Part shown: positions 29,685-39,565 of the stretch, in pieces
How positions within the stretch are numbered: the first letter of the stretch is position 1
Layout: every line of letters begins with the position of its first letter
Assembly (NCBI GenBank): GCA_964019425.1
Contig: OZ025782.1
Span: forward strand, 1,550,001-1,614,000
Direction of reading: 5' to 3'
From: Flectonema sp. DT1601
Taxonomy: Eukaryota
Length of the DNA stretch: 64,000 nucleotides
Translations under genes and position numbers: made by a program
Notes under the pieces: model-generated
Database searches by the model: none
Seen by the model: only the letters and a program-made list of their open reading frames with translations
What the model was told of the DNA's origin: nothing

Positions 29685-30029
29685 GGTTTGCAGGCCCCAA
29701 AAGCTGAACGAAAAAATTGGGCCGTTCGAATCACTAACTTGCATGTTGTCGGTTGCAGTCATCACTCACCTGTCAGCATACTCTTTACCTTAATTACGCT
29801 TAACCCTAACGATGATTTGGCAAATAACAAACCTTGAGGTTGAATTCGATAGAGTGGGAAGTAACGGACTGGGAGCTTTTGGCTCCTGCCCTATTCCCGA
29901 TGTAAACTTTCTTTTTATTTTTTTTTTTTTAACAGGCCCAGAGGGCGACAATGACTGTTGCTGACCAAGGAATAATATTCAAATGAATTTTCGTTTCAAA
30001 GAAACGAACAGAATTAAGAGAGAGGCAGA

Positions 30030-30063
<34 letters not shown>

Positions 30064-30294
30064 AAAAAAAAAAAAAAAAATATGAAGAGGAAATAATCAA
30101 ACATGAAAAAAATAAAAAAAAATAAAATATAAATAAAAAACGTTGTATGAAAAAGGAAAAAAAAGAAGAAAAAAAAAAAAACCAGAAAAGGAAAGAGAAA
30201 ATGAAAAGGTATAATATTATTGTGGGGATATGAGGGTAGCAGGGAGATGCTCTTTTTTTTTTTTTTTTTTTTTTTATTTATTATTTAAAAAAAA

Positions 30295-35929: not shown

Positions 35930-38900
35930 TTACAAGGGGGTGGAGTCACCGTGAACGTCATCAGCAGAACATCTCCTTCGATTATAACGATATCTTGATG
36001 GAGGGGTCCGTTTTTTCAGAGTTGAACGCTCAGACTTTCTCGGCGGAGTTTCAATTTCCTCATGTTCTTCTGTGTCTGGCGGACTCAAACCTTCTGCCCA
36101 TGAAGCTAATTGGAACTTCAGGGCCGCAATTTGAGACCGTGCCAAGGCGAGTTGAGCATTTAAATCGCTCGCCAGTCCCGTTAACATCATGGATTGCTCA
36201 AGCTGCTCTGCGTGAGTTGTACACCGTTGGTGATTCAGCTCCGAGAGGCGAAGTTGGGCATCCAAAAGTTGTTCTGAGAGCTCTGCCGCTTTCTCGTTTG
36301 TTTCGAGAGAGTCATCTACTGCTCGACAGTAGTTCTCGAGTAAGTCAATCCTACCCTCAGACCATTGTCTCGCAATAGGTGTATTCACTTTAACGGAGAT
36401 AACGTGGCTCTCTTGTCGTAAAATCTTGGTCGGCGTGCGGTCGAGAGCTTCACTCTGCGGCATTGTCGGAGGAATTGAGGCTAGAGGACAAAGAAGGGTG
36501 ATATAATTAAGGGTAGGGATAAGGGGTTTAATAAGAGGAGTAAAAAGACTACTCGTAGTTGTAAAGAGCGAGAGGTAGTTCTTTGCTATCTTCATCATAG
36601 CAACAGATTCATACAAAATAGGGGATCGGGGGGAAACTTGTTGACTAAAGTGGGTCATGTGGGGACGTGCGGCACGCAAACTCTCGACCTCCTGTTGAGT
36701 ATAGAAAAGTCTTATTTTACTTTCTCTTTCCTCATTACATTTGGTCTCTAATTCGTTCGACAGAAGAACAAACCTTTGATGGTAATTGAAAAGCGCCATT
36801 TCCGATAGGTCTGCTTTCTGAGTCAGATTTGCGAGCTCACGTTTCCTGTAATCTTCCACTAAGTCATATTGACGAACTAGTGCGGAAAGAGAAGTCTTCG
36901 ATTCATCGCGTTCTACTGTTAACCGTTGAATTACTCCTTCCAGAAGTTCATATTCTTTTCTATCTTTTTCAATAATTAAAACAGGGGGCGCAGGAGGAAG
37001 TGAGGATGGATCCTGGTTGGTAGCTTTGATCTCAACAGGTAATCCGTTTAGTAACTGCTTGTCTTTCTCGAGGGAGGCTGACATCGCATTAAAGTAAAAT
37101 AAAAATAGAACATAAAAAATTCGTTCTTTCATTTGTTCTAATTCGTTTTCTAAAATCTGGCATTTCAAGGAAAGTTTCAGCCTTAATCTTCCTTTTTTTT
37201 CTTTGTACAAGGGGGTTTGAGAACCAATGTCAGATTGACATCTTAACACCATAGCAAAATCAGTAGGGAGTGTTTGCGATCCCGTTGACGTGAGTTCAGG
37301 TGGGGGAGTCTGGAAAGAGATGGAAGAAATAGAAGAGAATGACAAGGAGAGTCCAGTGAGCTCATCCTCATCTAACAAAACAGAAGGGGCCGGGGAGGAA
37401 GACCCATTGGCAATAAGTAGAATAGAAAGAGCCGATGCGTAACAAGTTTGCCAGATAAAACATTTCTCAAGCCACGATCTTTCAATGGTGAGCTTTTCGA
37501 TCGTTTTCAGTTTTGTTACTTTGTGGATTTTGACTTCTTCTACAGGGAAGATTTCTTTACCATCTTTTATAAAACTTGCAGTGGCAGGTTCTTCTTTAAT
37601 GCTGCGCATTAGAGGTCTTGAATGCCACGTGGGGAGGTTCCTCGTCTGGAACAGAACATATGAGCACTGTCTGGCGATTCTGGTGCATTCACAAAATAAA
37701 GCTTTTGTTGGTGCTAAAGGTGAACCGATGTGACGTGTCCAGATGTTCAGCTGGTCCATGCAGATGTTTCCTCGTACGCCAACTTCAATAGTAAAAATGT
37801 TACAGTCGAAGCCATTAGCGATGATCGAGTCTCTTAGCTTTAGGTATTTCTTTTCCTTTAAGACATGAGAGGTTTCGAAACGATCTTCATTTGGACACGT
37901 CAGCTCCAGAATCAGTGCTCTTTTCGCAAAAAAAGAATAAATAAAAATGTCTGGTCTTAGAGAGGACGAGACATGGCACACTTCAAGAGGAACAATTAGG
38001 CGGTTATCACCGACATCGTCGAGGATGACCCAATCATTCGCTAGTGAAAGTTCGCCTGTCTCTTTAGAAATTCTTTCTAGGGGTTTATTTTCCCCTGTTT
38101 TTAAAAAAGTTTTAGAGGGAGGCGGGAGGTTTTCTTTTCTTTTGTTGGCTTTTAATATCAACTCTTCCAAGAAGATAACAATGCGTTTTAGAACGCTGTC
38201 ATGACGCCACGTGAACCTCCCTTGTGTTAAAGAGACAGGACAGCCTGTTAAGACATGCCTGAGGGTAGGATTCACTTTGCCACACAATACACAATTTTGG
38301 TCCACGTTGGTGATGTTCCACCTCTTTAAATTATCTTGTGAGGGGAGGGTGTTTGTAACCGCTTTCAGTTGAAATGAGATATAGGCAGGATTTCCCTCCC
38401 TAAGTACCTTATTCCAGGTGAAATCGTTTATCATACATTTAGACCACTCCTTCCACTGTCCTTGGACTTGTAATTTATTCAAAGAGTTCAGTAGTTCATC
38501 TGTGGCTTCCACTTCAAAACGCTTAAGGAGATCGGGGCGAGTAGTACGTAGATCGCGCAATCGGTGACCAAGACCAGCTGATTGCTTCGCGAGAGAACGG
38601 TAAGAAAAAAACTTAATAAGGCGCTCCCATTCAGCAGAAGCTGAAAACTTTTTCGACCAATTGGACGATTTCTCCATAATAACATTGTAGACACCGTGCA
38701 TGTCAGAGTCCTGTGAGGATCTGAGTATGTCTAGTTTAATTGATTGCGCTTGTTTATATAGCGTCTCGACTCTTTTGTGTCTGAGACCAACAGTGTTCTT
38801 TGAACCGGTAAAAAGGATGACTGTGTTCGCAGAGCGGACAAATCCCCACCATTTCTTCAAAAAAGGTTTAATAATTTTGTCCATTTTTTTGGCAAAAGGG

Positions 38901-39565
38901 AGAGATAAGTCATGGATCATTAAACTCCATGTTAACCTTGACAATAACAAGTGTTGGACAGACCAAGCCTTCTGAGACCCATACAGTGGCATGGCGTCGA
39001 CTTTTTTTAAAAAATTCCTGGTAAAAGTGGTCAGGCGCTCTCGCAATTTCTGTTCTTTGGCGTTCGGCTCAAACCAACGCCCGAGGTATTTGAACTCTCC
39101 AGCTTCCTGGAGATTCGTAATCGGAACATTGTTAATCTTCAGGTCCGGGTTAGCTGGTTTCCCTTGTACAAAGCTGTGGGCAATGCATTTCTGGGGTTTC
39201 GCTTTCATACCACGAGACCAGGAAAGAAACTGTTCGAGCGACTTGATTAGCAATTTTGCCCCCGCCTTTGATGACGTGGAAAGTTGTAAATCATCAGCAA
39301 AAGCTGCAACTAATAGTTGGAGGGATTTATTGCTAAACTCGTAGGCTTCCTGTTGATGAACTGCTAAGGAAAAGAGCAGTAGTTGGAATACCAAATTAAA
39401 AAGGGTTGGGGAGGAAACGCAGCCTTGAAAGACACCAACTTCAAAAGGGATAGTGGGCGTCAGGCCTTCTCCAACTCTGATTTGGACGCGCATGGAGGAA
39501 TAATACCTTTTATAGAAACCGATTATTCTTTCGTGAATTCCGAAATATTTTAAAGCAAAGAAAAT
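35930..39565 (-). CDS. RT (5'-truncated) - CCHC zinc knuckle - PD-(D/E)xK restriction-like endonuclease - long C-terminal extension
   Basis: GVFQGCVSSPTLFNL, AFADDL, FKYLG, CVLCG..TLRHVLTGC, WRHDSVL, RPDI..ILELTCP..KEKKY. Confidence 0.95.
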   Translation of the reverse strand: MFFALKYFGIHERIIGFYKRYYSSMRVQIRVGEGLTPTIPFEVGVFQGCVSSPTLFNLVFQLLLFSLAVHQQEAYEFSNKSLQLLVAAFADDLQLSTSSKAGAKLLIKSLEQFLSWSRGMKAKPQKCIAHSFVQGKPANPDLKINNVPITNLQEAGEFKYLGRWFEPNAKEQKLRERLTTFTRNFLKKVDAMPLYGSQKAWSVQHLLLSRLTWSLMIHDLSLPFAKKMDKIIKPFLKKWWGFVRSANTVILFTGSKNTVGLRHKRVETLYKQAQSIKLDILRSSQDSDMHGVYNVIMEKSSNWSKKFSASAEWERLIKFFSYRSLAKQSAGLGHRLRDLRTTRPDLLKRFEVEATDELLNSLNKLQVQGQWKEWSKCMINDFTWNKVLREGNPAYISFQLKAVTNTLPSQDNLKRWNITNVDQNCVLCGKVNPTLRHVLTGCPVSLTQGRFTWRHDSVLKRIVIFLEELILKANKRKENLPPPSKTFLKTGENKPLERISKETGELSLANDWVILDDVGDNRLIVPLEVCHVSSSLRPDIFIYSFFAKRALILELTCPNEDRFETSHVLKEKKYLKLRDSIIANGFDCNIFTIEVGVRGNICMDQLNIWTRHIGSPLAPTKALFCECTRIARQCSYVLFQTRNLPTWHSRPLMRSIKEEPATASFIKDGKEIFPVEEVKIHKVTKLKTIEKLTIERSWLEKCFIWQTCYASALSILLIANGSSSPAPSVLLDEDELTGLSLSFSSISSISFQTPPPELTSTGSQTLPTDFAMVLRCQSDIGSQTPLYKEKKGRLRLKLSLKCQILENELEQMKERIFYVLFLFYFNAMSASLEKDKQLLNGLPVEIKATNQDPSSLPPAPPVLIIEKDRKEYELLEGVIQRLTVERDESKTSLSALVRQYDLVEDYRKRELANLTQKADLSEMALFNYHQRFVLLSNELETKCNEERESKIRLFYTQQEVESLRAARPHMTHFSQQVSPRSPILYESVAMMKIAKNYLSLFTTTSSLFTPLIKPLIPTLNYITLLCPLASIPPTMPQSEALDRTPTKILRQESHVISVKVNTPIARQWSEGRIDLLENYCRAVDDSLETNEKAAELSEQLLDAQLRLSELNHQRCTTHAEQLEQSMMLTGLASDLNAQLALARSQIAALKFQLASWAEGLSPPDTEEHEEIETPPRKSERSTLKKRTPPSRYRYNRRRCSADDVHGDSTPL

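What the first reader, a model, noticed from the sequence alone, without database searches (positions are those of the whole stretch)
29842..39565. A giant RLE retrotransposon that appears to carry a satellite array in a ~6-kb 3' region and to end without poly(A)
Seen: both RT-RLE ORFs are 5'-truncated inside the RT and are followed on the same strand by the same modules (CGATCG-rich repeats, GGTATCTC block, satellite B). Those modules lead through an AT spacer to a fixed end, ...CCCACTTTATCGAAATTC. For copy 1, the RT break (39565) and that end (29842) are the only two interruptions of this stretch of the MuDR-like host. For copy 2, the RT break (58018) and the end at 24328 rejoin satellite A in register. 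Established: a fixed 3' end with variable 5' truncation is the footprint of target-primed reverse transcription, and RLE-clade 3' UTRs are normally short. Inference: satellite B is an internal part of the retrotransposon and spreads by retrotransposition.
Basis: partly seen in the sequence, partly recalled or inferred. Interest (0 to 1): 0.9.

Follow-up and report, generated by a model that had tools for sequence, protein, structure and literature searches.

The report
Retrotransposon carrying its own satellite array
A jumping gene of the oldest non-LTR type, in what is probably a single-celled eukaryote, has a 4.3-kb satellite array and a tail-less hairpin end lying behind its reverse transcriptase, and likely copies the satellite around the genome each time it moves.

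Summary
Observation confirmed, with corrections. At 29842-39565 (minus strand) a 5'-truncated ORF (RT, CCHC finger, restriction-like endonuclease) is followed by 6,088 bp with no long ORF: hairpin repeats, a GGTATCTC block, a 4,268-bp array of about 32 satellite-B monomers, an AT-rich spacer and a fixed end. All six large satellite-B arrays in the window join that spacer by the same junction. The end occurs 12 times (chance 0.28), on pieces from 18 bp upward. No poly(A) follows it at 10 of 10 window junctions or 38 of 38 read-through matches in proteins from other contigs. Copy 2's outer ends rejoin satellite A at 119 of 120 bases (null 10 of 400).

New here: a 3' stem-loop shared with a sister end (two compensatory pairs); a 569-aa in-frame C-terminal extension, predicted coiled-coil, under purifying selection, in two swapped versions, with no homolog found; and frequent self-insertion.

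Best reading (0.72): an R2-like RLE retrotransposon of about 11 kb or more whose RNA carries the satellite. Untested: genome-wide ORF-to-end linkage, an RNA, clade placement. Caveat: nine proteins share at least 117 nt beyond the end. New variant of a known kind.

The parts
35930..39565 (-). Copy 1 ORF, 5'-truncated inside the RT: RT, CCHC finger, RLE endonuclease, then a 569-aa in-frame extension
   Evidence: Open frame; Pfam RVT_1 E 1.2e-11 and zf-RVT E 9.3e-7; RHD and RPD..E motifs; break at 39565
35930..37639 (-). C-terminal extension; last 380 aa predicted as two long helices with a disordered linker and a basic tail; exists in two versions about 50% identical
   Evidence: dN 0.39, dS about 2 over 266 codons; pLDDT 51.6; 14 hits, all this family
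35531..35929 (-). Spacer after the stop codon, with an internal A-tract at 35532-35586 that is not the element's end
   Evidence: contig 3 of run X1 is laid on both sides of it
34971..35530 (-). CGATCG hairpin repeats (period about 218), diverged relatives of the satellite-B monomer
34523..34970 (-). GGTATCTC block (17-bp repeats) and a segment shared with the sister 3' region X
30255..34522 (-). Satellite B array, 4,268 bp, about 32 monomers of two types (about 142 and 113 bp), mostly alternating, 21% GC
29842..30254 (-). Terminal AT-rich spacer (T module) with the 3' stem-loop at about 29866-29891 and the end at 29842, no poly(A)
54583..58012 (-). Copy 2 ORF, 5'-truncated in the RT, second version of the extension, cut and joined to the CGATCG block at 54582
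41290..54582 (-). Copy 2 3' region (CGATCG block, GGTATCTC block, satellite B, T module, end at 41290), interrupted by nested insertions
24328..24441 (-). Outermost end of the copy 2 composite, joined to satellite A
24442..28254 (-). 5'-truncated copy of another subfamily (GGTATCTC block 74-87% identical) with a 2,971-bp satellite-B array; likely inserted into a T module
44751..50380 (+). Two head-to-tail truncated copies (ends at 46842 and 50380) inserted in reverse into copy 2's array
39901..39922 (+). 22-bp stub of the end inserted into a T module
41155..41172 (-). 18-bp stub of the end inserted into satellite B
58578..58612 (-). About 35-bp stub with a clipped end in satellite A, repeated at 59078-59112
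22626..23114 (+). Short rearranged copy with two ends (22982, 23114) in satellite A
42935..44078 (+). Sister 3' region X: no satellite B, same terminal stem-loop with two compensatory pairs; stubs at 52689-52752 and 21400-21455
28385..39888 (.). Host of copy 1: non-coding element with about 75-bp inverted ends (94% identical) and TA-rich flanking duplication, MuDR-like by anatomy only

Best explanation
This is a 5'-truncated copy of an R2-like (restriction-endonuclease) non-LTR retrotransposon whose 6-kb 3' region contains the satellite-B array, and whose RNA is likely reverse-transcribed at a nicked target from a fixed point just past a 3' stem-loop, which would carry the satellite to each new site. 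Shown: the anatomy, the fixed end without poly(A), the variable opposite end, the shared array junction, and nesting into its own copies. Inferred: the protein binds the stem-loop, nicks DNA with little sequence preference, and primes on 0-5 nt of pairing between the nicked strand (often ending in T or GAA) and the RNA end; synthesis stops early, giving stubs from 18 bp upward. Inferred: satellite B arose by duplication and expansion of the older CGATCG hairpin repeat inside this 3' region; array length then changes by slippage or unequal exchange. Inferred: the full element is about 11 kb or more (ORF about 1,750 aa plus 6.1 kb). Predicted: the C-terminal extension is a translated coiled-coil that helps build or localise the protein-RNA particle.
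For: RT, CCHC finger and RLE motifs in one frame; best solved relatives are R2 proteins. End motif 12 times, chance 0.28. 6 of 6 large arrays share the junction to the terminal spacer in one orientation; 3 keep the upstream block. A-run after the end 0-5 nt at 10 of 10 window junctions; 0 of 38 read-through matches in proteins from other contigs show a poly(A) signature. Copy 2's ends rejoin satellite A, 119 of 120 bases, null 10 of 400. Empty sites that can be read show 0-7 nt duplicated or 0-4 nt lost. Stem-loop: 9 of 9 pairs kept in 5 sequences of two end types, 2 pairs changed on both sides, and one invariant G-U pair that works only on the ORF's sense strand; z -2.91 on that strand against -1.29 on the other for the main end. 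One contig of run X1 crosses the A-tract. The family is large: protein clusters of 235 and 47 members. Extension: dN/dS about 0.2 between versions; 6 of 14 fetched members with the RLE motif run unbroken to the family stop. 6 of 23 ends found by an end-only query sit in the family's own sequences.
Against: Only one copy (copy 1) runs from ORF to end without a break, and its empty site is unknown. In copy 2 the ORF-to-3' junction at 54582 could be a truncated copy inserted into another ORF rather than a deletion; ends do insert into ORFs in both orientations. Nine proteins share the same 39 residues (117 nt or more) beyond the end, with different end variants and truncation points, so the end is not absolute; P0095, P0099 and the satellite-A stubs are clipped by 3-6 nt. 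The covariation rests on two independent end types; 253 of 500 shuffles reach two such pairs, and the sister end's fold is not significant (z -0.43). The register test is p about 0.025 on one site. The structure model of the extension is poor (pTM 0.22).
Confidence: 0.72

Rival explanations
1. The satellite-bearing unit (GGTATCTC block, satellite B, terminal spacer) is a separate non-autonomous, SINE-like retroelement that borrows this RT through the shared 3' stem-loop; it lies behind the ORF in copies 1 and 2 because it inserts into its partner's 3' region.
For: Most copies in the window lack the ORF; ends insert into ORF and 3' sequences in both orientations; a sister end X without satellite B exists and could be the ORF's usual end.
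Against: Copies 1 and 2 share the same CGATCG-to-GGTATCTC-to-satellite order at 96% over 692 bp. No leftover 3' part of an interrupted ORF copy was found beyond either end. Missing ORFs are what 5' truncation of a 6-kb 3' region predicts. No tRNA-like head was seen in the unit.
Confidence: 0.15
2. The true RNA end lies further downstream and the motif is an internal start point or processing site; or a subfamily inserts site-specifically in an unseen repeat.
For: Nine proteins share 39 identical residues beyond the end, with three end variants and at least two truncation points; most are of copy 1's variant end.
Against: 30 of 38 junction matches have other flanks; copy 1 does not carry this flank (no tblastn match in the window). 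This modifies the best explanation more than it replaces it.
Confidence: 0.07
3. The unit is moved by another enzyme (Helitron/Helentron type, as for DINE elements with central tandem repeats, or a Penelope-type RT) and merely sits beside the RLE ORF.
For: DINEs are known to carry and spread tandem repeats (PMC9659126, table passage); short head-to-tail duplications of the end (114 and 132 bp) resemble Penelope pseudo-LTRs (recalled).
Against: The end read as a 5' end does not begin TC or TT; no inverted subterminal repeats or fixed A/T site (hallmarks recalled). No hammerhead match. No other RT found by Pfam in the 10 window ORFs scanned. The G-U pair points to RNA of the ORF's strand. The 114-bp piece reads more simply as the remainder of a T module that received an insertion.
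Confidence: 0.04
4. The order is a by-product of recombination or mis-assembly in a repeat cluster.
For: About 30 of 38.6 kb between 21600 and 60172 is this family.
Against: Sharp ends at dozens of unrelated flanks on other contigs; independent runs reproduce ORF and spacer at about 98%; nested insertions leave arrays in register.
Confidence: 0.02

Closest known systems
RLE non-LTR retrotransposons (CRE, R2, R4, NeSL, HERO clades); HERO-like by recalled motif resemblance only
   Same: One ORF with N-terminal zinc fingers (P0043), RT, CCHC finger and RLE; 5' truncation; little or no target duplication; no strict target, as for many HERO families (PMC4640811, passage read).
   Different: 3' region of 6.1 kb against 600 bp in cockroach R2 and 132-241 bp in BLAG (PMC7650587, passages read); 569 aa after the RLE, whereas 12 of 25 measurable relatives end within 20 aa and the longest has 350.
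FoTeR and MoTeR1 (fungal telomeric RLE elements)
   Same: RLE element with variable tandem repeats inside it, no poly(A) described at the 3' junction, a coiled-coil region in the protein (PMC12857005, passages read).
   Different: Their repeats are mostly 5' of the ORF, the 3' UTR is 336-409 bp, total length at most 7.3 kb, and they target telomere repeats.
Ogre LTR elements (PisTR-A), HeT-A and cetacean L1 as sources of satellites from 3' regions
   Same: Satellite DNA born from repeats in a retrotransposon's 3' region (PMC9659126, passages read).
   Different: Other retroelement classes; here the array appears to travel inside the element and no large free array was seen in the window.
Zepp and ZeppL (green algae)
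   Same: Nested self-insertion making clusters dominated by 3' ends (PMC8226300, passages read).
   Different: Zepp is an L1-type element; this one also inserts in unrelated sequence and no centromere link is shown.
Terminons (giant Penelope-like elements of rotifers)
   Same: Large size, coiled-coil coding, a structured 3' end, 5' truncation, head-to-tail arrays (PMC6431247, passages read).
   Different: Different RT class, no RLE, hammerhead-defined end at telomeres; no hammerhead found here.

Membership tests
RLE non-LTR retrotransposon | Non-LTR-type RT domain | tested here: met
   Pfam RVT_1; best PDB matches R2 (E 3.8e-32) then L1 ORF2
RLE non-LTR retrotransposon | CCHC finger followed by RHD and PD..E endonuclease motifs after the RT | tested here: met
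   C-x2-C-x8-H-x4-C-x11-RHD read from the translation; RHD and RPD..E; motif form as in PMC12857005, spacer 11 rather than 9-10
RLE non-LTR retrotransposon | N-terminal zinc finger(s) | tested here: inconclusive
   Two C-x2-C...H...C patterns by eye in family member P0043; no Pfam finger match; absent from the truncated window copies
RLE non-LTR retrotransposon | Fixed 3' end, variable 5' truncation, no LTRs | tested here: met
RLE non-LTR retrotransposon | Target-primed reverse transcription by the encoded protein | not testable with these tools
   Inferred from junctions only
HERO clade | RT groups with named HERO elements in a phylogeny | not testable with these tools
   No named HERO, NeSL, R4 or CRE sequences were available; relatives at 26-35% identity are unnamed. 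Resemblance is recalled, so membership is not claimed
HERO clade | Mostly no strict target site | tested here: met
   30 of 38 junction matches have flanks other than the one shared flank; not diagnostic on its own
R2 clade | Insertion at a fixed rRNA gene site | tested here: not met
   Varied flanks; the nearby LSU fragment ends 160 bp from the junction
Penelope-like elements / Terminons | Penelope-type RT, GIY-YIG or no endonuclease, hammerhead at the end | tested here: not met
   RLE architecture; no hammerhead
Helitron / DINE non-autonomous elements | 5' TC or TT, 3' hairpin with CTRR or TTT, subterminal inverted repeats, fixed dinucleotide site (recalled) | tested here: not met
   Junctions; self-comparison
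MuDR/MULE (host of copy 1) | Long inverted ends, about 9-bp duplication, MuDR transposase | tested here: inconclusive
   Inverted ends 94% and TA-rich duplication seen; no transposase frame in this copy

The most novel reading that the evidence does not exclude
An RLE retrotransposon lineage with an exchangeable 3' half: each version of the coiled-coil C-terminal extension co-evolves with its own hairpin-repeat 3' region, and satellite B is a functional array (protein-loading or self-targeting) rather than cargo, so that the element builds satellite-rich nested islands between gene clusters, possibly at centromere-like sites.
Probability: 0.17. Interest if true: 0.85.

Novelty: new variant of a known kind. 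Interest (0 to 1): 0.6.

Why it matters
How satellite arrays appear at many unlinked sites is an old question; retrotransposition of whole arrays is one proposed route, documented mostly for LTR and rolling-circle elements. Here a multi-kilobase array sits in the 3' region of an apparently young, high-copy RLE element (copies 97.8% identical), with fixed landmarks on both sides, so the route can be tested directly by counting junctions and reading RNA. An RT that copies 6 kb of AT-rich hairpin repeats from a tail-less stem-loop end, and an RLE protein with a selected 569-aa extension, also bear on the use of R2-like proteins for inserting long RNA templates.

Tried and rejected
No whole genome is held, so copies could not be collected as DNA. 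The end motif found nothing in metagenome contigs and a relative's protein (P0004) found no locus there, so no relative's 3' region could be measured. No RNA holder listed; this is no evidence on expression. Runs X1 and X2 gave no cover of 34523-34890 at 90% likeness; a gap in such contigs proves nothing. A second read-laying on the terminal region did not complete, so the empty site of copy 1 stays unknown. Rfam: nothing at gathering score; only an LSU rRNA piece at E 1.2e-11 in the two stretches searched loosely. ARAGORN: no tRNA. ESM Atlas for the extension gave generic coiled-coil proteins with a low recognition value, 1592, so weak; the search for the RT did not complete. No fold search was run on the low-confidence model. 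No RT tree was built because no clade-labelled sequences were available. Earlier scan findings: none returned. The Giardia GilM/GilT paper is not held; my memory that these have long 3' UTRs is unchecked. Rejected: the A-tract at 35532 as the 3' end (crossed by an independent contig, same downstream order in both copies); the LSU fragment as a target; the 114-bp piece as a Penelope pseudo-LTR.
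Full report
Setting. The first 17 kb of the window holds long intron-free genes on one strand; 21.6-60.2 kb is a repeat cluster, about 30 of 38.6 kb of it one family. No whole genome is held. The host is probably a euglenozoan, perhaps a diplonemid: this is an inference from gene layout and from a description of Diplonema (gene clusters separated by transposon-rich repeats, scattered 28S pieces; PMC10161547, passages read) and was not tested.

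Anatomy of copy 1. On the minus strand one frame runs from 39565 to a stop at 35930, with RT and zf-RVT matches, a C-x2-C-x8-H-x4-C finger, and RHD and RPD..E endonuclease motifs. Then follow 6,088 bp: a 400-bp spacer with an A-tract, CGATCG hairpin repeats, the GGTATCTC block, 4,268 bp of satellite B (about 32 monomers of about 142 and 113 bp) and a 413-bp AT-rich spacer ending at 29842. The break at 39565 is exact: 97.8% identity to copy 2 stops there, and contigs of two independent runs continue as copy 2 does. One contig of run X1 lies on both sides of the A-tract (1 of 4 runs laid), so the element does not stop there in that sample.

The end. The motif occurs 12 times against 0.28 by chance, on pieces of 18, 22 and about 35 bp up to kilobases. 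The A-run after it is 0-5 nt at 10 of 10 junctions, and the runs of 4 and 5 match A-runs of the target. Because gene callers read from flanking DNA into the end, database proteins give junctions from other contigs, inferred to be the same or a close genome. Among all 134 fetched proteins, 38 matches to the translated end were found and none has the poly-Phe or poly-Lys that a tail would give. Eight of the 38, nine proteins in all, share the same 39 residues beyond the end, with different end variants and truncation points: the end is fixed for most copies, not all. Of 23 proteins found with an end-only query, 6 have the end inserted in the family's own ORF, satellite or sister region; the rest lie in other or unidentified sequence. 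This sample is biased to open frames. Leucine precedes the end in 7 of 18 cases (p 0.006), and in the three where I read the target from the window it ends in TT, which suggests short pairing at priming.

Satellite B is bound to the unit. All six large arrays join the terminal spacer by the same junction and orientation; three also keep the GGTATCTC block; the others are cut on the far side. Of 74 monomer cores, 72 lie in these blocks; one is in a short rearranged copy and one in a diverged relative at 60085. The monomer aligns in part with the CGATCG repeats and with repeats at 59920-60172, so it likely grew from an older repeat of the same 3' region.

Copy 2. Its RT similarity ends near 58012. 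Joining the satellite-A flanks at 24330 and 58017 matches the uninterrupted array at 119 of 120 bases; 10 of 400 random pairs do as well. The 33.7 kb between can be read as nested insertions that leave their targets in register: a reversed dimer at 44751-50380, region X, stubs, three elements with inverted ends, the MuDR-like host with copy 1, and a diverged copy at 24442-28254 that appears to split a terminal spacer.

A shared 3' stem-loop. Region X (42935-44078 and two stubs) lacks satellite B but ends in a related sequence. A 9-pair stem-loop about 25-30 nt before the end is fully paired in 5 of 5 sequences, with two pairs changed on both sides and an invariant G-U pair that works only on the ORF's strand. 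This rests on two independent types; 253 of 500 shuffles reach two such pairs, and only the main end folds better than shuffles (z -2.91; X -0.43). It fits the general rule that the RT recognises a 3' structure and that the boundary may be neither poly(A) nor repeats (PMC2881922, passages read).

The protein. The family has clusters of 235 and 47 proteins; the nearest outside relatives are unnamed, 26-35% identical; the best solved match is R2. The frame runs 569 aa past the endonuclease; 12 of 25 measurable relatives end within 20 aa, the longest after 350, three of them with a UCH domain. 6 of 14 fetched members holding the endonuclease motif run unbroken to the family stop; these come from 30 of 282 members listed. 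The last 380 aa exist in two versions about 50% identical on a 99% identical RT, so the 3' half has been exchanged. dN/dS is about 0.14 in the RT, 0.35 and 0.2 in the two parts of the extension (simple counting, dS near saturation in the last). A search of 1.84 billion representatives found 14 hits, all this family. The model shows two long helices, a disordered linker and a basic tail, at low confidence. Overlapping members give about 1,750 aa for the full ORF, hence about 11 kb or more for the element.

Comparison. It works like an R2-type element and meets the testable features of RLE retrotransposons. HERO membership is a recalled resemblance and could not be tested; R2 proper, Penelope-like and Helitron-type readings fail tested features. 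Published 3' UTRs that I read are short: 600 bp and 132-241 bp (PMC7650587), 336-409 bp with tandem repeats mostly 5' (PMC12857005). Satellites derived from retroelement 3' regions are known (PMC9659126), as are nested clusters (PMC8226300) and giant coiled-coil-coding retroelements (PMC6431247). Also read as passages: PMC4640811, PMC10088271, PMC7367193. Searches listed no paper whose title, abstract start or read passages describe an RLE element with a kilobase satellite array in its 3' region; Repbase and most subscription journals are not covered, no supplements were read, and the Giardia paper was not held.

Verdict. A real and unusual element: a new variant of RLE retrotransposon. The main claim is well supported locally (0.72) but still lacks genome-wide linkage and an RNA. 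Interest 0.6.

Noticed in passing
window 29569-29682 (-): Deleted fragment of eukaryotic LSU rRNA inside the MuDR-like host (Rfam E 1.2e-11); looks like captured cargo.
   Followed up: partly
window 28500-28565, 39697-39760, 40797-40845, 50990-51035: tRNA-like stretches seen by eye just inside the ends of several inverted-repeat elements; ARAGORN calls none.
   Followed up: no
window 12173-12447, 28999-29303, 42119-42420: A 300-bp MITE with inverted ends and TA duplication, three copies 94-99% identical; also ends protein P0037.
   Followed up: partly
window 40251-40937, 49314-50100, 50538-51264: Three other non-coding insertions inside the family's 3' region; the last two have clear inverted ends.
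   Followed up: no
window 17560-21350: Tandemly duplicated element with a 414-aa frame without Pfam match and GTGAAAATGT and CTGTT microsatellites.
   Followed up: no
window 62578-63760 (+): A 263-aa frame followed by a frame resembling the N-terminal part of a tyrosine recombinase (recalled resemblance; no Pfam match); perhaps a DIRS/TATE-like element.
   Followed up: partly
window 59692-60172 (-): A third 3' variant: diverged satellite-B-like repeats followed by a segment 96% identical to region X.
   Followed up: partly
window 21696-24330 and 58013-59691: Satellite A (27-31 bp units with higher-order pattern) holds four separate insertions of this family and an inverted block at 22406-22536.
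   Followed up: partly
window 54582 and protein P0046: Two separate copies of the second extension version break within a few bases of the same codon and join different 3' modules.
   Followed up: no
proteins P0109, P0113, P0128-P0134: Nine proteins share 39 identical residues beyond the end; that sequence is not in the window.
   Followed up: partly
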